A stretch of 26,156 nucleotides of DNA from Patescibacteria group bacterium (GTDB lineage Bacteria; Patescibacteriota; UBA1384; CAILIB01), in assembly GCA_018968785.1 (NCBI GenBank), contig JAGWZN010000001.1:1-26156 (forward strand), in the 5' to 3' direction. A model generated the notes under the pieces. It was given only the letters and a program-made list of their open reading frames with translations, was not told the origin of the DNA and ran no database searches. This document shows, piece after piece, positions 4,045-11,375 of this stretch (position 1 is the first letter of the stretch; the number at the start of each line of letters is the position of its first letter). The translations under genes and the position numbers were made by a program.

Positions 4045-4245
4045 CTATTTCTTCTTCAGGAGTGGGAGGCCGGTGCGAGGATTCTCGGAAACCACCCGGT
4101 CAGCTGGTACAGCATCCAAGGAGAATTTGGGATCCTCGGTGCGGGAGAAGTAGTAGATAACCTGCTTGCGGCCGCCCTTCAACGTTACTTCCTTCGAATG
4201 AAGGTAGTACGTCTGCCCCTTGGAATTCTTGTACGTATACGCCAC
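4045..4245 (-). CDS. Small basic hypothetical protein (66 aa, MAYTYKNSKGQTYYLHSKEV...GLPLLKKK)
   Basis: GTG start at 4245 preceded by GGAG; followed by a strong terminator; 13 K/R and 6 Y. The ORF track's longer 93-aa version runs through the promoter region and is less likely. Confidence 0.8.
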   Translation of the reverse strand: MAYTYKNSKGQTYYLHSKEVTLKGGRKQVIYYFSRTEDPKFSLDAVPADRVVSENPRTGLPLLKKK

Positions 4246-4378: not shown

Positions 4379-5350
4379 CTATTTACTCACAACATTTGTT
4401 GGCGTTTCGCCGGACAGAACTGCGTGGATATTCCGGGCCACGCTCTCCGCCATTCCCTGCCGGGTTAGCTCCGTCGCAGAGCCAATATGCGGTGTAACCA
4501 CCACATTTTCCAACTTAGCCAGCCCGGCCGCCAGTTCAGGCTCAAACTCGAACACGTCTAAGCCGGCCGCGTACAGCTCCTTATCGGCCAGGGCTTTTAC
4601 GAGCGCGTTTTCATTAATAATTGGCCCGCGGCCGGTATTAATCAGCACCGCTGTCGGTTTCATCAGGCGAAACTCCTCCTTGCCCAGCAGATGACGGGTC
4701 TCCCGGTTCAGTGGCAGATGGATCGATACCACATCCGACGTAACCAGCAGTTGTTCCAGAGAAACTTTGGTGGCGCCCAGATCCTTCTCAATCGCCTCAT
4801 TGCGACAGATATCGTAATACAGCACCCGCATCCTAAGGCCGTTATGGCAGATCCGGGCAAACTGCGAACCGATCTGGCCGCTGCCCAGTATTCCTACCGT
4901 TTTCCCCACCAAATCACGACCTAGGAACAGATTGGGATCCCAGTGCTTATACCGGCCGTGCCGCATAAACGTATCAGCCGGTAACAGATGCCGGGCTGTC
5001 GCGAACATCAGGGTAACCGCGTGTTCGGCTACTGCCGGCGCGGAGATAGCGCCGGGGGTATTGCACACAATAATTCCTCGCTGCTTCGCGGCTTCCAGAT
5101 CGATATTGTCAAAACCAACCGCGTACTGGGCGATAACTTTCAACTGCGAACCGGCGGCTTCCATCATTGTATCGTCAACCGCGTCGGTTAACAGGGTAAC
5201 TACCGCGTCCGCTCCTTTAACGAAAGTTCGGAGTTGAGTGGGAGTCATAATTGTGTCGGCGTGGACGGTGACAGCGTACCGCGACTGAAGCATCTTCAAG
5301 CCGGCTTCGTGGATTGGTCGGGTGACAACAACTTTCGGTTGGCTAGGCAT
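4379..5350 (-). CDS. D-isomer-specific 2-hydroxyacid dehydrogenase (glyoxylate/hydroxypyruvate reductase, D-glycerate dehydrogenase type)
   Basis: AVGFDNIDL, VGILGSGQIG Rossmann motif, LINTGRG, LDVFEFEP and TPHIGSAT catalytic Arg/Glu/His motifs. Confidence 0.92.
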   Translation of the reverse strand: MPSQPKVVVTRPIHEAGLKMLQSRYAVTVHADTIMTPTQLRTFVKGADAVVTLLTDAVDDTMMEAAGSQLKVIAQYAVGFDNIDLEAAKQRGIIVCNTPGAISAPAVAEHAVTLMFATARHLLPADTFMRHGRYKHWDPNLFLGRDLVGKTVGILGSGQIGSQFARICHNGLRMRVLYYDICRNEAIEKDLGATKVSLEQLLVTSDVVSIHLPLNRETRHLLGKEEFRLMKPTAVLINTGRGPIINENALVKALADKELYAAGLDVFEFEPELAAGLAKLENVVVTPHIGSATELTRQGMAESVARNIHAVLSGETPTNVVSK

Positions 5351-5359
5351 GGCGGTAAT

Positions 5360-6361
5360 TTATTTCTCAGGTTGACCGTGCGCGTTGAGCGGATAGGTTC
5401 GCAGATCGGGATTATCGGCTAGAATTTGATCCAACTGTTTCCGATACAACAGGCCGGCTTGCGGTCCAATCTGTTGGATCACCGAACTGGCCTCAGCCTG
5501 ACCCCAGCGCATCGCTTCGCTAATCGGCAGCCCGAGGGCGGAAGCAGCCGTAAATCCGGAAGCAAAGCTGTCGCCGGCACCGGTTGCCTCAATGCGGGGC
5601 GCTTCCTCAATAATCCCCAGGTACAGATACTCCCGGCCATCTGAAACATAGGCGCCTTTCGGCCCATCGGTAATAACGGCAATCTCCATTCCCAGCGCCA
5701 GTAAACCGTCCAGCAGTTCCCGGAAATTATCGGTTGGCTGTTTCCCCAGATACAACTCCGCCTCTTCCTTATTCACAAAGAAGATTTTTGTATGCTCCAA
5801 AAGATCGGCTACTCGTTCCGAACCATATTTTAGCTGGAACGTACCCGGCTGATAACACAGGTTTACCTTGTTTTCCTTCACATAATGCACCAAGTCGGGC
5901 AGGATATTCTCAAACCCTTCTCCCATTGATGAGAGATACACCCATTTCGCCGGCTGCATCTTCGGAAGTAGGTAGTGGCGGTGGATGTGATAAATCAAAA
6001 TAGTGCGCTCAGCGTTTAAATTGATTACTACGCTGTAGTTCGACTCTTTGTCATGATCGACGACAATATAATCATCCGCCACTCCGTTCTTCCGGTACTC
6101 TTTAATAATCCGCTGTCCCTGGTCATCGCCGCCGACATGCGTGTAGATCCCCGCCTTAAACCCAAGCCTGGCAAAGGCGACAGCGGAGTTCGAGGAGTTG
6201 CCGCCCACGATGTCGTGCTTGGATGTAACCGGTATCTTATCAGCGTAATTAAAACAGATCTGCTCGCATTCATGACGGATTTCATGCAAATGGGCGTTTT
6301 CCGGCGTCATCTCCAAAAACACGTCCTGCATCGTATCGCCGATAGATATCGTCTCGAACAT
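5360..6361 (-). CDS. PfkB/ribokinase-family carbohydrate kinase
   Basis: GGNSSNSAVAFARLG, NKEEA, ITDGPKGA and ATGAGDSFASGF (anion hole plus catalytic Asp); SD GGAG upstream. Confidence 0.9.
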   Translation of the reverse strand: MFETISIGDTMQDVFLEMTPENAHLHEIRHECEQICFNYADKIPVTSKHDIVGGNSSNSAVAFARLGFKAGIYTHVGGDDQGQRIIKEYRKNGVADDYIVVDHDKESNYSVVINLNAERTILIYHIHRHYLLPKMQPAKWVYLSSMGEGFENILPDLVHYVKENKVNLCYQPGTFQLKYGSERVADLLEHTKIFFVNKEEAELYLGKQPTDNFRELLDGLLALGMEIAVITDGPKGAYVSDGREYLYLGIIEEAPRIEATGAGDSFASGFTAASALGLPISEAMRWGQAEASSVIQQIGPQAGLLYRKQLDQILADNPDLRTYPLNAHGQPEK

Positions 6362-6370
6362 ACTTTCTCC

Positions 6371-7147
6371 TTACTTGCTTAAACGGATATACTGTTTGAC
6401 ACTTTCCCGAACCGCCAGAACCCCGGTCGTAAGATACGTTCCCGGCCGATGAAGCGACCGGTTTCGTAACGCCGTACGCACGCCGGCGGTAAATGCCTCA
6501 TCCAGGCTTACATCCAGATAGAAACCGGCCACGCCGGCTTTCAGCGCCGGTTTAATCCAGCGAGGCGCCGCTTCCAGATCGCTTGCTAACACCGGTATTC
6601 GAACCGCGGCCGCCAGATCGCGCAGAAAAACCGGCGATACGGATGACCGCTGGCCGTGTCGCATCAGAACTGGTACTGTAAGTGCCGCCACGCCGGTCTG
6701 CCGGACAAACGCCTCGGTTTTTGTCAGGGTAGTGACATCCGGCAAATTCCCAATCATTCCCGCTCTTTCCCGACCGGCTTCGGCAGCCGCCCAAGCCGTG
6801 AATCGGACAGTAGTTATTTTGGCATCTTCGGCATGAATTTCCAGAGAAAGAGAGTCGGCGCCCAGAGCAAGCGCCTGTTTAACCGCTGACTCTTGCATAG
6901 GAACCCGAAGCTGTAAAGATATCTCCGTTTCCAGATGAGCGGCCCGCTGCCGGACATAGCTAAAGAGAAAAGAGAGCGGAATAACGCCGGCCGGATCATC
7001 AGCTAGAACGAAAAGAATCGACTGCCGCTCCGCTTCCGCCGCTTGAAGTACCGCTTCCGCCACTTCAATATCCCGGACCACCGGCGCGATTACCGGCTGT
7101 TTCCGTCGTTTCGCCCGGGAAAGGAGCGTCGAAAGAGAGATAAGCAT
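6371..7147 (-). CDS. Degenerate class II fructose-bisphosphate aldolase-like protein (probable pseudoenzyme), 258 aa
   Basis: Collinear with class II FBA by eye: AVLQAAEAERQ, AFVRQTGVAALTV, RHG, AVRIPVL, AFTAGVR. The HLDH and LHG motifs are replaced by QLRV and LAS. ATG 7147 lies 4 nt after the tktC stop. Confidence 0.75.
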   Translation of the reverse strand: MLISLSTLLSRAKRRKQPVIAPVVRDIEVAEAVLQAAEAERQSILFVLADDPAGVIPLSFLFSYVRQRAAHLETEISLQLRVPMQESAVKQALALGADSLSLEIHAEDAKITTVRFTAWAAAEAGRERAGMIGNLPDVTTLTKTEAFVRQTGVAALTVPVLMRHGQRSSVSPVFLRDLAAAVRIPVLASDLEAAPRWIKPALKAGVAGFYLDVSLDEAFTAGVRTALRNRSLHRPGTYLTTGVLAVRESVKQYIRLSK

Positions 7148-7151
7148 ACGA

Positions 7152-8147
7152 TTAACCCTTCTTACTCTTCCGCTTAATAACAGCCATTGCCGCTTCCCCA
7201 ATGTCTTTCGCCCGCAGTCCGTAGGCGTCCATCAGCTCGGCCGGGGTGCCGGATTCACCAAAGATGTCACGCACGCCGACCCGTCGCAAAGGCACCGGAT
7301 ACTTTTCACCAATTAACTCAGCCAAGGCGCCGCCTAGGCCGCCGTTTATCTGCGCTTCTTCAGCGGTAACTAAGGCGCCGGTTTTCTTTACGGAGGCAAT
7401 AATCGTCTCTTCATCCAGCGGCTTCACCGTCGGCACCGCCAACACCTCAACTGATATTTTCTTTCGGGCCAGCGCGGCTGCCGCCTGTAGCGCCTCGTAC
7501 ACCAGCGGGCCGTTAGCGCAGACTGTGACGTCGGTTCCACTCCGCAACAGATTGGCTTTACCGATTGTAAACGGAGTTTCCGGCACGGTAACGGTGGGAA
7601 CTTTATCTCGACCGAAACGGATATAGACCGGGCCGTGATGCGCGATTGCCGCCTCCACCACCTTGCGCGTTTCGACGATATCGGTCGGAACAATCACTAC
7701 CAAATTGGGAATCACCCGGGTAATGGCGACATCCTCCAGCGCCTGATGGGTTGCGCCATCCGGACCAACCGAAATACCGGCATGGGCGCCGATAATCTTC
7801 ACGTTGGCTTCCGAGTACGCTACCGATACTCGCAGTTGATCCCAGTTCCGGCCGGGATTAAATACGGCGTAGCTGGCGACAAACGGGATTTTTCCCGAAA
7901 GCGCCAGGCCGGCGGCAATGCCCATCATATTCTGCTCTGCGACCCCGGTTTGCACGAACCGATCCGGAAAAGCCTCGGCAAATGCCGATATTTTAATTGA
8001 ATCGGTCAGATCGGCGCATAAGGCCATAACCTTCTTATTTTTCCGTCCGGCTTCCAGCAACGCTTCGCCGAAGCCGACCCGGGACATGGCCATCTCCGCC
8101 TTGTCCAAGTCACTGATGATAGGTACGGTTTTGTCTATTTTGCTCAT
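7152..8147 (-). CDS. tktC: Transketolase, C-terminal (pyrimidine-binding plus C-terminal) subunit
   Basis: TGVAEQNMMGIAAGLA, GPDGATHQALED, GPVYIRFGR, GGLGGALAE. ATG 8147 overlaps the tktN stop (ATGA). Confidence 0.93.
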   Translation of the reverse strand: MSKIDKTVPIISDLDKAEMAMSRVGFGEALLEAGRKNKKVMALCADLTDSIKISAFAEAFPDRFVQTGVAEQNMMGIAAGLALSGKIPFVASYAVFNPGRNWDQLRVSVAYSEANVKIIGAHAGISVGPDGATHQALEDVAITRVIPNLVVIVPTDIVETRKVVEAAIAHHGPVYIRFGRDKVPTVTVPETPFTIGKANLLRSGTDVTVCANGPLVYEALQAAAALARKKISVEVLAVPTVKPLDEETIIASVKKTGALVTAEEAQINGGLGGALAELIGEKYPVPLRRVGVRDIFGESGTPAELMDAYGLRAKDIGEAAMAVIKRKSKKG

Positions 8148-8977
8148 GCCGGTTCCCCTACTTTTTGTAGCCAGAGATCTTCCAACGCCTTTTCCGCTTC
8201 TTCCGGTTTTGGCGCCACCCCATGCCATTTATAATTACCTTCCATAAAATCCACCCCTTTGCCCGGCACCACGTTAGCCATAATGCAAACCGGGCGTCCG
8301 GAAACCTGTTTCGCTTGATGAAAAGCGCGCAGTACCTCTTTCATATTATTTCCGTCAATTTCAATTACCTCCCAATTAAAGGCCCGGTACTTTTCGGCAA
8401 AGGGATCAAGCGGCATCACCGTTTCCGTGTCACCTTCTATTTGAATCCGATTCCGGTCCACAATCACGGTTAGATTGTCCAACTTTCGGGCGGCCGCGAA
8501 CATTACCGCTTCCCAAATCTGACCCTCATCATGTTCGCCGTCACTGGTTACACAATAAATCCGATGATTTTCCCCATCCAGCCGTGCCGCCAGCGCCATC
8601 CCAACCGCTTGCGAAAGACCTTGGCCAAGCGGACCGGACGTGGTTTCCAGACCCGGCATTGCCAGATTATGCGGATGGCCCTGCAGCCGGGTTCCAAACT
8701 TCCGCAAGGTTAACAGCTCTTTGCGGGGAAAATAACCGGACTCGGCCATAGCGGCGTACCGCACCGGACAGGTGTGGCCGCAGGAGAGAATCAAACGATC
8801 CCGGCCTGGCCATTCCGGTTTTTTCGGATCGTGGCGCATTACTTCAAAGTAAAGAGCCGCGTAGATATCAGCCATTCCAAGTGCCCCTCCCGGATGACCG
8901 GAGCCGGCTTCCTCCAACATCACAATGATATCCTCACGAATAGCCAGCGCCCGGCGTTCCAACTGTTCGATTGTCAC
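8144..8977 (-). CDS. tktN: Transketolase, N-terminal ThDP-binding subunit
   Basis: GSGHPGG, RDRLILSCGH, LQGHP, TSGPLGQGL and the SDGEHDEG...DRN ThDP motif; GTG start. Confidence 0.93.
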   Translation of the reverse strand: MTIEQLERRALAIREDIIVMLEEAGSGHPGGALGMADIYAALYFEVMRHDPKKPEWPGRDRLILSCGHTCPVRYAAMAESGYFPRKELLTLRKFGTRLQGHPHNLAMPGLETTSGPLGQGLSQAVGMALAARLDGENHRIYCVTSDGEHDEGQIWEAVMFAAARKLDNLTVIVDRNRIQIEGDTETVMPLDPFAEKYRAFNWEVIEIDGNNMKEVLRAFHQAKQVSGRPVCIMANVVPGKGVDFMEGNYKWHGVAPKPEEAEKALEDLWLQKVGEPA

Positions 8978-9031: not shown

Positions 9032-10042
9032 CTATATTGATTGGCCAAGCAGAATCGCCTGCTCAACCAGACGGTTGCTGTAACCCCATTCATTATCATA
9101 CCAGGCTACCACTTTCACAAAATTACCGCCGATAACCCGGGTAAGCGAAAGGTCGACAATGGCCGAATGGCTATTTCCCTTAAAATCGCTGGAAACCAAC
9201 TCGTCCTCGCTCACATCTAAAATACCGGCAAACCGCGGTTTCTTACTGGCGGCAATCATGGCGTCGTTGATTTCTTCCACTGTCACATTCTTTTTGAGCA
9301 CGGCCGTGATATCGGAAATTGACACCACAATGGTCGGCACCCGGAAGGAGAGACCGTCAAACTTGCCTTTCAGCATGGTGAGACTCTCCGTGGTGGCAAT
9401 GGCGGCACCGGTAGAAGTCGGCACAATGTTCTGGGCCGCCGCCCGCGCCTCCCGAATATCCTTTGCCGGCCCGTCCTGCAACATCTGGCTTTGCGTATAA
9501 GAGTGGATGGTGGACATCAGCGCTTTTTCAATTCCGAACTCCTCCTCAAGCACCGCCATCACCGGCGTAATACAGTTGGTGGTACAGGAAGCGTTATTAA
9601 TAATTTCGGCATCGCCGTCGGTCGGGTTGACTCCCATAACATGAGTAGGCGCCGGATCGTTTCCTTTGGACGGCGCGGAAATAATAACCCGCTTCGCGCC
9701 GGCTTTGAGGTGAGCGCCGGCGGTCTCCTTATCCAAAAACCGTCCGGTCGATTCAATGACCACATCAGTATCCGCTTTGCCCCAGGGAAGCATAGCCGGA
9801 TCTTTTTCGGTGTAGACATGGATTTTGTGACCGTCAACCGTGATACTGTTCTCGTCATACGTTACCGAATACTTATACTCGCCGTAGGCAGTGTCATGCT
9901 TCAGTAGTTGGGCCAATGTTTTTGTGCTGGTCAGATCGTTCAGCCCGACAATCTCACAGGCGTCCCGATGCTCAAACGCCACCTTCAATGCGTTTCGGCC
10001 GATGCGGCCAAATCCGTTAATGCCAATCCGTACCTTTTTCAT
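9032..10042 (-). CDS. gap: Glyceraldehyde-3-phosphate dehydrogenase, type I
   Basis: IGINGFGRIGR, ASCTTNC catalytic motif, RVPT, WYDNEWGYSNR. Confidence 0.97.
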   Translation of the reverse strand: MKKVRIGINGFGRIGRNALKVAFEHRDACEIVGLNDLTSTKTLAQLLKHDTAYGEYKYSVTYDENSITVDGHKIHVYTEKDPAMLPWGKADTDVVIESTGRFLDKETAGAHLKAGAKRVIISAPSKGNDPAPTHVMGVNPTDGDAEIINNASCTTNCITPVMAVLEEEFGIEKALMSTIHSYTQSQMLQDGPAKDIREARAAAQNIVPTSTGAAIATTESLTMLKGKFDGLSFRVPTIVVSISDITAVLKKNVTVEEINDAMIAASKKPRFAGILDVSEDELVSSDFKGNSHSAIVDLSLTRVIGGNFVKVVAWYDNEWGYSNRLVEQAILLGQSI

Positions 10043-10689
10043 GCTCCTCCTGATACTAATTGAGTAAAGTATTGTATGCTTTGGGTGATATTTTGCGCTA
10101 CAAACAGTTGCGAATTCATGACGAACCGACTGACTCCCGCCTTCTGCAACTGGCGAATATTATCTTCGGAGACGCCGCCATCCACCGCAATGACCGCTTT
10201 TAACTGCTGCGTCTTCACCTTTTCGATAGTAGCGTATACCGACTCCAAGAAGGGTTGACCGCTAAAACCGGGGTGAACGCCCATACACTGCACGACCTGG
10301 ATTGGCAGATCAGCGTATGACTCAACTTCAGTATCGGGATTAATCACTAATCCAACCTCGGAGAAATAGTTGCCCGCGTCATGTATGGCGGCGGCACACT
10401 CTTCCATTGAACCAAACGCTTCCCGGTGAATAAGCACGCGGCTGACACCGGCTACCGTCAGGTCGGAAAAGTACCGCTCCGGCCGGTATGTCATCAGATG
10501 CGCTTCCAAACTTAGCCGAGTGGAGATACTCATAATTTCATGCGGCATCACCGTAATATTCGGCACAAACTGCCCGTCCGCAAAATCAATATGAACCCAT
10601 TTCGAGCTGCTGTTTTCCACAGTTTCCAGATGAGCGACATACTCTTCCAAAGTATGGGTTAAAATGCCGGGATAGATTTCAGTCTTCAT
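10039..10689 (-). CDS. rpe: Ribulose-phosphate 3-epimerase
   Basis: HIDFADGQFVPN, EAHLM, MGVHPGFSGQ, VDGGV. ATG 10689 is preferred over TTG 10704. Confidence 0.9.
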   Translation of the reverse strand: MKTEIYPGILTHTLEEYVAHLETVENSSSKWVHIDFADGQFVPNITVMPHEIMSISTRLSLEAHLMTYRPERYFSDLTVAGVSRVLIHREAFGSMEECAAAIHDAGNYFSEVGLVINPDTEVESYADLPIQVVQCMGVHPGFSGQPFLESVYATIEKVKTQQLKAVIAVDGGVSEDNIRQLQKAGVSRFVMNSQLFVAQNITQSIQYFTQLVSGGA

Positions 10690-11140
10690 ATCGGGTGTGC
10701 TCAATATTGTGTAGCTTTTCTAACCGTCGAACATGGCGCTCTGCCCCGGAAAACGGTGTGGAGAGGAATATCCGGGCAATTTCCAGCGCCTCCTCATTAC
10801 CGATAAAATCCGAGGGAAGCACTAAAATATTGGCGTCATTATCCCCTCTCGTCTCTTTAGCAACTGTCGGCTGCCATACAAGCGCCGCCCGAATACCCGG
10901 TATTTTGTTTGCCGCCATCTCCATGCCTTCACCGGAACGGCAGAGCAAAATACCGACCGTTTCTTTATCGGTATCTGCCGCCACCTGCTGACCAACCGCC
11001 ACCGCGAAATCCGGATAATCGGTCGACTCGGTTGAATAACTGCCGCAGTCGGTCACCGATTGGCCGTCACCGGTCAGATGTTCAATAAGGTACTTCTTCT
11101 GTTCAAAACCGCCATGATCCGATCCGACGTAGATTTTCAT
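10679..11140 (-). CDS. rpiB: Ribose-5-phosphate isomerase B
   Basis: MKIYVGSDHGG, DYPD, GILLCRSGEG, ANKIPGIRAA, NDANIL, FSGAERHVRRL. The start is ATG 11140. Confidence 0.93.
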   Translation of the reverse strand: MKIYVGSDHGGFEQKKYLIEHLTGDGQSVTDCGSYSTESTDYPDFAVAVGQQVAADTDKETVGILLCRSGEGMEMAANKIPGIRAALVWQPTVAKETRGDNDANILVLPSDFIGNEEALEIARIFLSTPFSGAERHVRRLEKLHNIEHTRYED

Positions 11141-11146
11141 AACCCT

Positions 11147-11175
11147 ATTATATGAAACAAAAAACACTCTGTCCA
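11147..11175 (-). promoter_or_regulatory. sigma70 promoter for the rpiB operon (TGGACA-17-TATAAT), apparently leaderless
   Basis: Minus strand TGGACA 11175-11170, 17-nt spacer, TATAAT 11152-11147, 6 nt, then ATG 11140. Confidence 0.7.
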
Positions 11176-11225: not shown

Positions 11226-11375
11226 CTAGAAGAACAGTTCCTCCAGCTCGCCATCGGTTAGCGTCATTCCCAGCGGATCATCCGTTTTTTCTTCTTCTTT
11301 CTCGACGCCCTCATCGTCATCTCCGTTGTAACTTTGTCCATACATATCAGCCGGGTCGGATTTGATTTTTCCCAT
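11226..11375 (-). CDS. Unannotated acidic microprotein (49 aa)
   Basis: Translated by hand: MGKIKSDPADMYGQSYNGDDDEGVEKEEEKTDDPLGMTLTDGELEELFF* (ATG 11375, TAG 11228-11226). It is below the ORF-track cutoff and is flanked by a promoter and a terminator. Confidence 0.6.
   Translation of the reverse strand: MGKIKSDPADMYGQSYNGDDDEGVEKEEEKTDDPLGMTLTDGELEELFF

What the first reader, a model, noticed from the sequence alone, without database searches (positions are those of the whole stretch)
6371..7147. Catalytically dead class II aldolase retained intact inside a sugar-metabolism operon
Seen: a full-length 258-aa ORF with no frameshift or stop, packed 4 nt after tktC and 9 nt before pfkB. It follows class II FBA along its length but has QLRV (aa 79-82) in place of HLDH, SLSLE for SVMID, AGMIG for EAELG, no acidic catalytic loop, LASD for LHG(G/A)SG and FYLDV for KIN(V/I)xT; only the His of RHG remains. 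Established: class II FBA needs the Asp of HLDH and three Zn-binding His residues. Inference: it cannot be a normal aldolase. Selective loss of active-site residues with a preserved scaffold points to a pseudoenzyme, for example a metabolite sensor, scaffold or regulatory partner for the split transketolase, PfkB kinase or an active aldolase encoded elsewhere. This is the best candidate for an undescribed system in the window.
Basis: partly seen in the sequence, partly recalled or inferred. Interest (0 to 1): 0.78.

Follow-up and report, generated by a model that had tools for sequence, protein, structure and literature searches.

The report
Dead aldolase kept in sugar operon
One family of tiny-genome Patescibacteria has kept, under selection, a class II fructose-bisphosphate aldolase gene that lost its whole catalytic site, while every genome examined gets an intact aldolase of one of three other kinds from elsewhere; this is a natural example of an enzyme turning into a non-enzyme whose job is still unknown.

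Summary
The gene lies on the minus strand (ATG 7147, stop 6371-6373) and gives 258 aa. It starts 4 nt after tktC and ends 9 nt before pfkB. It is a true class II FBA homologue: Pfam PF01116 41.6 bits, family profile against Thermus FBA E 1e-26, AF2 pLDDT 94.9, Foldseek TM 0.89. The catalytic Asp, two of three Zn-binding His, the Zn-binding Glu, the substrate Asn, the phosphate pocket and the catalytic loop are gone.

This is a family trait, not a local accident. More than 50 diverged relatives lack the same residues, all from one Patescibacteria family. Sister families carry an intact FBA in the same tktC-pfkB slot.

The protein changes 2-4.5 times faster than its neighbours, yet dN/dS is roughly 0.1-0.2 (a rough figure, since dS is saturated), and no copy examined has an internal stop or frameshift. 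What stays conserved is the N-terminal helix and the alpha8/alpha8a dimerisation helices, with an added arginine cluster.

All 11 genomes of the family hold an intact aldolase elsewhere, of three different kinds. Two genera lost the dead copy.

Verdict: a real pseudoenzyme. Its non-catalytic role is unresolved and no partner was shown.

The parts
6371..7147 (-). X: 258-aa catalytically degenerate class II FBA homologue (stop included)
   Evidence: PF01116 41.6 bits; family profile against 1rv8 E 1.4e-26; AF2 pLDDT 94.9; Foldseek TMq 0.87-0.90 to class II aldolases.
7156..7160 (-). Shine-Dalgarno-like AAGGG, 8 nt before the X start, inside the end of tktC
   Evidence: Read directly. The assignment as a ribosome-binding site is inferred.
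7100..7147 (-). Codons 1-16: conserved N-terminal helix alpha0 (M1, L9, R11, invariant R14)
   Evidence: conservation in 49 family members; synonymous codon variation shows the constraint is on the protein.
6902..6913 (-). Codons 79-82, Q-L-R-V, in place of the H-L-D-H catalytic Asp and Zn-binding His
   Evidence: The position is variable across the whole X family.
6410..6499 (-). Codons 217-246: most conserved block (A218, F/Y219, T220, A221, invariant G222, R224, L227, R228, R230, Y238, A245, V246). It corresponds to the alpha8/alpha8a dimerisation helices of class II aldolases, with an added Arg cluster.
   Evidence: SqiA dimer-core residues Phe239 and Val243 (PMC10665668) align with F219 and V223.
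7152..8228 (-). tktC (transketolase C-terminal half); the true start is probably ATG 8147
   Evidence: PF02779 and PF02780; ATGA overlap with the tktN stop; orthologues align from residue 29-50 onward.
5360..6361 (-). pfkB-family sugar kinase; best but sub-threshold match is ribokinase
   Evidence: PF00294 134.6 bits; TIGR02152 94 bits, below cut-off.
8144..8977 (-). tktN (transketolase N-terminal half)
9032..10042 (-). gap (type I GAPDH)
   Evidence: TIGR01534 390 bits, above cut-off.
10039..10704 (-). rpe (ribulose-phosphate 3-epimerase)
10679..11167 (-). rpiB (ribose-5-phosphate isomerase B), first gene of the operon
   Evidence: PF02502 160.7 bits.
4379..5350 (-). D-2-hydroxyacid dehydrogenase, last gene of the operon

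Best explanation
X is a lineage-specific pseudoenzyme. It descends in place from the class II fructose-bisphosphate aldolase that sits between tktC and pfkB in the rpiB-rpe-gap-tktN-tktC-fba-pfkB operon of related Patescibacteria.

Shown here:
- In one GTDB family this copy lost the catalytic Asp, the Zn ligands, the substrate Asn, the phosphate pocket and the mobile catalytic loop.
- Each genome of that family carries an aldolase of a different kind elsewhere. In this genome it is an archaeal-type class I FBA on contig C157.
- The dead copy keeps the TIM-barrel fold and remains under relaxed purifying selection.

Inferred, not shown:
- The strongest constraint falls on the N-terminal helix and on the alpha8/alpha8a helices that form the dimer core in active class II aldolases. 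There is also a gained cluster of arginines (R11, R14, R228, R230 beside the ancestral R224) and a shift to a basic protein. I therefore think it most likely works as a dimeric, non-catalytic binding or scaffold protein for an anionic or protein partner.
- That role may be a second function of the ancestral enzyme that outlived catalysis.
- The role is useful but dispensable, because two genera have lost the gene.
For: Homology and fold.

Catalytic residues are lost in the whole family of more than 50 clusters. Residue roles come from PMC10665668.

Positional orthology: the same tktC-[slot]-pfkB place holds 280-288 aa FBAs with HLDH or HFDH in same-order genomes (G332, G333) and same-class genomes (G301, G309, G029). 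The high-scoring X type was found only in family f1, out of 162 genomes of the class and 301 of the phylum. A tree branch with 100/99 support separates X from intact FBAs.

Selection: X is 26-34% identical between genera, against 48-82% for its operon neighbours, and its dN is 2-4.5 times higher. In the closest pairs omega is about 0.12-0.20, against 0.02-0.06 for neighbours. No X copy retrieved as a complete protein or read in the loci has an internal stop or frameshift. Codons vary synonymously inside the conserved motifs.

Replacement aldolases: all 11 f1 genomes have exactly one intact-looking FBA elsewhere.
- PF00274 class I in 5 genomes.
- DhnA/archaeal class I in 4 genomes, including this one. 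Its closest solved structure is Thermoproteus class I FBA, E 1e-58.
- A second class II FBA with the Asp-His dyad and both other His intact in 2 genomes.
- In the other 151 genomes of the class, PF00274 has 0 hits and the DhnA type has 1 hit.

Conserved block and dimer core: F219 and V223 align with SqiA Phe239 and Val243.

Basic shift: median pI is 8.6 for the X family against 5.9 for intact FBAs. Two intact FBAs fell into the X group by my score cut-off, so the figures are approximate. This copy has pI 9.9.
Against: No biochemical data exist, so loss of activity is inferred from residues only.

dS is saturated in every pair, so the omega values are rough.

No partner or ligand was identified. 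The X-PfkB complex prediction gave no verdict.

X is deleted in G328 and its slot holds an unrelated rhodanese/UPF0176 gene in G324, so any role is not essential.

About half of the family members still keep the Glu134-equivalent and an Asp at the beta2 end. This looks like progressive erosion, not a re-designed site.

Dimerisation is inferred from sequence conservation and was not modelled.

The tree is unrooted with long branches, so in-place descent rests mainly on synteny.
Confidence: 0.7

Rival explanations
1. Functionless relic. The frame is kept open only because ribosomes must read through it to express the downstream pfkB and dehydrogenase genes (translational coupling and operon polarity), and the protein itself does nothing.
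For: X has the fastest dN of any gene in the operon. It was deleted cleanly in G328 and replaced in G324. The starts and stops of tktC, X and pfkB are tightly packed or overlapping. Former active-site residues erode progressively.
Against: A spacer frame would not keep invariant R14 and G222, near-invariant R11, R224, R228, R230 and Y238, a constant length of 237-259 aa, or a confidently predicted barrel. The conserved motifs vary at synonymous sites, so the constraint is on the amino acids. Omega is about 0.1-0.2. G328 shows that tktC can be joined directly to pfkB, so no spacer is needed.
Confidence: 0.13
2. Obligate non-catalytic partner (scaffold, stabiliser or allosteric subunit) of the adjacent PfkB kinase or of the split transketolase, comparable to GatZ for GatY.
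For: X always directly follows tktC and usually precedes pfkB, with coupled starts. Fusions of PfkB-family kinases with class II aldolase-family proteins exist as NCBIfam models (NF047869, seen).
Against: One contig has tktC-X followed by no pfkB. G328 and G324 keep tktC and pfkB without X. The adjacency is inherited from the intact-FBA ancestor, so it is not evidence of a new partnership. No test for or against binding succeeded.
Confidence: 0.15
3. Retooled enzyme. The barrel now catalyses a different, metal-independent reaction on a sugar phosphate of the pentose or triose pathway.
For: The TIM barrel is an adaptable enzyme fold. The gene lies in a sugar-phosphate operon. The conserved Arg and Tyr residues could bind a phosphate ester.
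Against: No polar residue is conserved at the C-terminal ends of strands beta3-beta8, where TIM-barrel active sites lie. The standard phosphate pocket (Gly-Gly-Ser, Asp-Thr) is lost and variable. The conserved residues lie in alpha0 and alpha8/alpha8a, away from the former pocket. The high substitution rate is unusual for a central-metabolism enzyme.
Confidence: 0.08

Closest known systems
Class IIb fructose/tagatose/sulfofructose-bisphosphate aldolases (Pfam PF01116; e.g. Thermus FBA 1RV8, SqiA 8Q57/8Q5A, AgaY 1GVF)
   Same: Homologous along the whole length. Same (alpha/beta)8 barrel (TMq 0.87-0.90). Same operon slot as the intact FBA of sister families. The alpha8/alpha8a dimerisation helices are conserved.
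   Different: Lacks Asp82, His83, Glu134, His208, Asn230, the Ser211/Thr233 phosphate pocket and the beta5-alpha7 loop. About 25 residues shorter. Basic instead of acidic. Evolves 2-4.5 times faster than its neighbours.
GatZ/KbaZ (AgaZ), accessory proteins of the tagatose-bisphosphate aldolases GatY/KbaY (Pfam PF08013). The accessory role is recalled from the literature and was not tested here.
   Same: A non-aldolase member of the wider class II aldolase superfamily, encoded in a sugar operon.
   Different: X does not match PF08013. There is no class II catalytic partner in this genome. X arose recently from a bona fide FBA, not from an old separate family.
Pseudoenzymes born after displacement of catalysis (general concept; for example the TIM-barrel pseudoenzyme PDX1.2, which I recall from the literature)
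   Same: Catalytic residues are lost and the fold is kept, the gene is under purifying selection, and the activity is supplied by another gene.
   Different: PDX1.2 co-assembles with its active paralogue. Here the active aldolases belong to three different kinds across the family, so partnering with all of them is unlikely. No function has been shown for X.

Membership tests
Class II FBA superfamily (PF01116), homology and fold | Significant match to the family profile over the full length | tested here: met
   PF01116 41.6 bits against a cut-off of 25.5, residues 5-256. Family profile against 1rv8 E 1.4e-26. Several other X members fall below the Pfam cut-off.
Class II FBA superfamily (PF01116), homology and fold | (alpha/beta)8 barrel superposable on solved class II aldolases | tested here: met
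   AF2 pLDDT 94.9, pTM 0.91. The top 50 Foldseek hits are all class II aldolases, TMq 0.82-0.90.
Catalytically competent class II FBA | Three Zn-binding His (83, 180, 208 in SqiA numbering) plus Glu134 | tested here: not met
   V82, H164 (kept here but not conserved in the family), A188, G130. Ligand roles are from PMC10665668.
Catalytically competent class II FBA | Catalytic Asp82 and substrate-binding Asn230 | tested here: not met
   R81 and Y210. Both positions are variable across the family.
Catalytically competent class II FBA | Phosphate pocket (Gly209-Gly210-Ser211, Asp232-Thr233) and mobile beta5-alpha7 loop | tested here: not met
   S189-D190-L191 and D212-V213. The loop is deleted by 11-16 residues.
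Catalytically competent class II FBA | Aldolase activity | not testable with these tools
   Needs an enzyme assay or complementation.
Catalytically competent class II FBA | Dimerisation helices alpha8/alpha8a with a hydrophobic core | tested here: inconclusive
   This is the best-conserved block of X. F219 and V223 align with the SqiA dimer-core residues Phe239 and Val243. The dimer itself was not modelled or measured.
GatZ/KbaZ accessory proteins (PF08013) | Match to PF08013 and a co-encoded class II catalytic subunit | tested here: not met
   No PF08013 hit at E up to 0.01. X is the only PF01116 match in the genome, which is 96.75% complete.
Pseudoenzyme (operational definition) | Homologue of an enzyme that lacks the catalytic residues | tested here: met
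Pseudoenzyme (operational definition) | Retained under purifying selection, not a decaying pseudogene | tested here: met
   Omega about 0.12-0.20 in the closest pairs (rough, because dS is saturated). The 50+ diverged copies retrieved as complete proteins, and those read in the loci, have no internal stop or frameshift. Conserved motifs vary at synonymous sites.
Pseudoenzyme (operational definition) | A demonstrated non-catalytic function | not testable with these tools
   The only attempt, an X-PfkB complex prediction, gave no verdict.

The most novel reading that the evidence does not exclude
X has gained a new function as a dimeric, basic, FBA-fold binding protein. It could be a nucleic-acid-binding or phospho-ligand-binding regulator of the pentose/triose operon, or another non-metabolic role inherited from a moonlighting ancestor. 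That role would be selected independently of which of three aldolase kinds supplies catalysis. If so, this would be the first described pseudoenzyme family of Patescibacteria, and a dated, replicated natural experiment on how an enzyme's second job outlives its first.
Probability: 0.2. Interest if true: 0.75.

Novelty: new variant of a known kind. Interest (0 to 1): 0.55.

Why it matters
Bacterial pseudoenzymes are rarely documented with evolutionary context. Here the ancestor state, the loss and the compensation can all be read in genomes:
- Ancestor state: an intact FBA sits in the same slot in sister families.
- Loss: one family lost every catalytic element.
- Compensation: three different replacement aldolases occur, one per genome, in all 11 genomes.

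For genome annotation and metabolic reconstruction of Patescibacteria this has a practical side. This gene passes the Pfam FBA threshold and could be counted as glycolytic FBA, while the real aldolase is a class I enzyme elsewhere.

If the retained protein has a defined non-catalytic role, it would give a handle on moonlighting functions of class II FBA, which have been reported in several bacteria (recalled from the literature, not checked here).

Tried and rejected
1. Complex prediction of X with PfkB, each with its own alignment: score 0.00, no verdict. This is not evidence for or against binding.
2. The search for related loci with the 49-sequence alignment failed because no stretch was conserved enough. 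With the 3-sequence alignment it returned only one Patescibacteria locus.
3. Population variants for a within-species pN/pS: the runs that hold the window are mine-drainage and soil DNA metagenomes, and the population is nearly clonal. There is a single SNP in X (6706 C>A, V148F), so there is no statistical power. No RNA run holds the locus, so transcription was not tested.
4. Sedoheptulose-bisphosphate bypass (kinase plus aldolase replacing transaldolase): rejected. A transaldolase gene is present on contig C83 (176.5 bits), and X lacks the catalytic residues.
5. GatZ-like accessory subunit: rejected. There is no PF08013 match and no class II partner.
6. The three 1400-1500 aa hits of the representative search (P0056, P0064, P0065): P0056 and P0064 are fibronectin-III repeat proteins that hit a low-complexity stretch, so they are spurious. 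P0065 was not scanned.
7. Link between X and the acidic microprotein upstream of rpiB: such a small acidic ORF is present in the same place whether or not X is present (G328 and G324 also have it), so there is no co-occurrence signal.
8. Literature searches for a described dead FBA in CPR/Patescibacteria found nothing relevant.
9. The HxDH text pattern used to label intact FBAs was too strict. NLDH, HQDH, HYDH and QLDH variants keep the Asp-His dyad and group with intact enzymes.

Full report
**What is in the sequence.**
The finding lies on the minus strand. The ORF starts at ATG 7147 and ends at TAA 6373-6371, giving 258 aa with no interruption. The tktC stop (7154-7152) is 4 nt upstream of the start, with an AAGGG Shine-Dalgarno-like element at 7160-7156. 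The pfkB ATG (6361) follows 9 nt after the stop, behind an AAGGAG. A longer reading from TTG 7201 is possible, but every homologue starts at the M-L-x-S N-terminus, so 7147 is the start. The surrounding genes form one co-directional operon: rpiB, rpe, gap, tktN, tktC, X, pfkB and a D-2-hydroxyacid dehydrogenase.

**X is a true class II aldolase homologue with a preserved fold.**
- Pfam PF01116 matches residues 5-256 at 41.6 bits (cut-off 25.5).
- A profile of 49 family members matches Thermus FBA (1rv8) at E 1.4e-26, and also SqiA/KbaY, AgaY and YdjI.
- AlphaFold2 with that alignment gives an eight-stranded barrel at pLDDT 94.9 and pTM 0.91.
- The top 50 Foldseek matches in the PDB are all class II aldolases, at TMq 0.82-0.90. 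The ESM Atlas search agrees.

**The catalytic machinery is gone.**
I aligned X with intact FBAs from the same order. Residue roles come from the SqiA structures: His83, His180, His208 and Glu134 bind Zn; Asp82 and Asn230 hold the C3 hydroxyl; Ser211, Thr233 and the Gly backbone bind phosphate; the beta5-alpha7 and beta6-alpha8 loops are mobile (PMC10665668). The changes in X are:

| Element in the active enzyme | In X |
|---|---|
| H-L-D-H (Asp82, His83) | Q79-L-R81-V82 |
| Glu134 | G130 |
| beta5-alpha7 loop | deleted by 11-16 residues |
| His208-Gly-Gly-Ser | A188-S-D-L |
| Lys-x-Asn230-x-Asp-Thr | G208-F-Y210-L-D212-V213 |

H164 (the His180 equivalent) and D212 survive in this copy, but they are not conserved among relatives.

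**This is a family trait.**
An exhaustive profile-free search found 85 hits. About 50 of them are 50%-identity cluster representatives of 225-266 aa that share the N-terminal and C-terminal motifs. None has the Asp-His dyad, and the former active-site columns are simply variable. The longer hits (270-290 aa) are ordinary FBAs.

In a maximum-likelihood tree, a branch of length 1.28 with 100/99 support separates the intact enzymes from the X group. One very long X branch (L040) is placed ambiguously. The tree is unrooted and its branches are long, so it shows one X group but not its origin.

**Where X came from.**
The genome is a 947-kb Patescibacteria MAG that is 96.75% complete. The runs that hold the window are mine-drainage and soil metagenomes.

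High-scoring X genes occur only in the window's own GTDB family (f1):
- Across 162 genomes of the class, 6 of the 11 f1 genomes match at E 1e-35 or better, 2 more match weakly, and no other family does.
- Across 301 genomes of the phylum, only this genome and one f1 relative score above 250 bits. All other matches score 105.6 bits or less. The 18 of those loci that I examined group with the intact FBAs, and the ones lacking a strict HLDH keep the Asp-His dyad.

The operon is syntenic throughout. In f1 the slot after tktC holds X (237-259 aa). In two same-order and three same-class genomes, the same slot holds a 280-288 aa FBA with HLDH or HFDH and a 304.7-bit Pfam match. X is therefore the positional orthologue of the operon's fba.

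**Is it decaying?**

| Measure | X | Operon neighbours |
|---|---|---|
| Amino-acid identity between f1 genera | 26-34% | 48-82% |
| dN relative to neighbours | 2-4.5 times higher | - |
| omega, pair L002/L039 | 0.12 | 0.024, 0.043 |
| omega, pair L039/L053 | 0.20 | 0.044, 0.055 |

Synonymous sites are saturated in every available pair, so omega is rough. Still, it is far below 1.

No copy has an internal stop or frameshift: the family members came back as complete proteins of constant length, and the copies I read in the loci are uninterrupted ORFs. The invariant or near-invariant residues (R11, R14, P185, A221, G222, R224, L227, R228, R230, Y238, A245) are encoded by varying synonymous codons. 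The constraint is therefore on the protein, not on an RNA or DNA element.

On the other side, X was cleanly deleted in G328, where tktC abuts pfkB. In G324 the slot holds a rhodanese/UPF0176 gene. One metagenome contig keeps tktC-X but has no pfkB. X is thus selected but dispensable, and it is not tied to pfkB.

**Who does the aldolase job?**
X is the only PF01116 match in this genome. Contig C157 encodes a 251-aa DhnA-type aldolase. Its closest solved relative is the Thermoproteus class I FBA (E 1e-58, 201 bits). Its NCBIfam matches to archaeal class I FBA and ADH synthase are below their cut-offs, so its specificity is inferred. TIM and transaldolase are present and PfkA is not.

Across the 11 genomes of f1, each has exactly one intact-looking FBA away from the operon:

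| Kind of aldolase | Genomes | Evidence |
|---|---|---|
| PF00274 class I | G285, G324, G325, G328, G331 | 330-366 bits; NCBIfam FrucBisAld_I 406 bits (cut-off 250) for G285 |
| DhnA-type class I | G000, G326, G327, G330 | |
| Second class II, with NLDH and the other His ligands intact | G329, G323 | |

FBP aldolase/phosphatase (PF01950) is absent from all 11. In the other 151 genomes of the class, PF00274 has no match and the DhnA type has one. The family in which the operon FBA died is thus the family that carries replacement aldolases, of three kinds. The order of loss and gain is not resolved.

**What the retained protein may do.**
Conservation is concentrated in two places, not around the barrel mouth:
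- the N-terminal helix alpha0 (L9, R11, R14);
- the block from E217 to V246, that is helix alpha8, the following loop and the start of the last helix.

In SqiA, helices alpha8 and alpha8a form the dimerisation domain, with Phe239 and Val243 in its core (PMC10665668). These two residues align with the conserved F/Y219 and V/L/I223 of X. The small residues A218, A221 and the invariant G222 fit tight helix packing.

R224 and L227 are shared with intact FBAs, while R11, R14, R228 and R230 are family-specific emphases. The family has shifted to basic proteins: median pI is 8.6 against 5.9 for intact FBAs, and this copy has pI 9.9 with net charge +7. Two intact FBAs were grouped with X by my score cut-off, so these figures are approximate.

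My reading, which is an inference, is a dimeric non-catalytic barrel with a basic surface that binds an anionic ligand or a protein. This may be a second function of the ancestral enzyme that remained useful after catalysis was taken over. The one complex prediction allowed (X with PfkB) gave no verdict.

**Rivals.**
- A pure spacer ORF kept for translational coupling is contradicted by the residue-level constraint and by the direct tktC-pfkB junction in G328.
- An obligate PfkB or Tkt partner is weakened by the independent losses, and by the fact that the adjacency is ancestral.
- A retooled enzyme is unlikely, because no polar residue is conserved at the barrel's catalytic face.

**Comparison with the known, and novelty.**
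X belongs to the class II aldolase superfamily by homology and fold, but it fails every catalytic criterion, so it should not be annotated as FBA. It is not a GatZ/KbaZ protein: it has no PF08013 match, and the genome has no class II partner. I found no paper describing a dead FBA in Patescibacteria.

It is a new variant of a known kind: a pseudoenzyme derived from class II FBA, with an unusually clear evolutionary setting. I score interest as moderate. The case is clean and useful for annotation and for pseudoenzyme evolution, but the function is unknown and the gene is dispensable.

Noticed in passing
window 8144-8228 (-): The longest tktC ORF starts at ATG 8228 and overlaps tktN by 85 nt. 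Orthologues align only from residue 29-50 onward. An ATG at 8147-8145 forms an ATGA overlap with the tktN stop, behind a GGGGAA element. The real start is probably 8147, which gives 331 aa.
   Followed up: partly
window 11226-11375 (-); L001 2089-2250, L002 3806-3934, L037 2593-2751, L038 951-1097, L039 9166-9309, L060 1808-1951, L065 6537-6719, L066 3114-3302: A 43-63 aa strongly acidic ORF with a hydrophobic or aromatic C-terminal end lies between xseB and rpiB in every f1 locus examined, including the two genomes without X. Its sequence is barely alignable between genera, but its position, charge and C-terminal character are kept.
   Followed up: partly
window 4045-4245 (-); L001 9115-9330, L002 9930-10133, L060 7955-8167: A 66-71 aa gene with no Pfam match is called in the same place in relatives, between the end of the sugar operon and the Bac_transf glycosyl-phosphate transferase gene.
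   Followed up: no
L056 2421-3299 (G324): In genus g250 the slot between tktC and pfkB holds a 293-aa UPF0176/rhodanese protein (the domain architecture I recall for TrhO; not tested here) instead of X.
   Followed up: partly
L001 8032-8964: In one relative the last operon gene is an Ldh_1-type lactate/malate dehydrogenase instead of the D-2-hydroxyacid dehydrogenase found in the window. This is another swap of non-homologous enzymes at one operon position. In L002 and L060 the position is empty.
   Followed up: no
window 6706: The only population variant seen in X across four metagenome runs is C>A on the plus strand. It changes codon 148 from GTC to TTC (V148F) and is present in two runs.
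   Followed up: partly
protein P0086 (metagenome, 274 aa): An FBA homologue outside the X group has QLDR in place of HLDH and lacks the His180 equivalent, while keeping LHGG. It may be an independent partial degeneration.
   Followed up: no
G000 contig C157 (L048 1501-2253) and neighbours (L004 742-1404): The class I aldolase of this genome lies just downstream of a MIP-family channel gene (aquaporin/glycerol facilitator type) and upstream of a histidine kinase gene.
   Followed up: no
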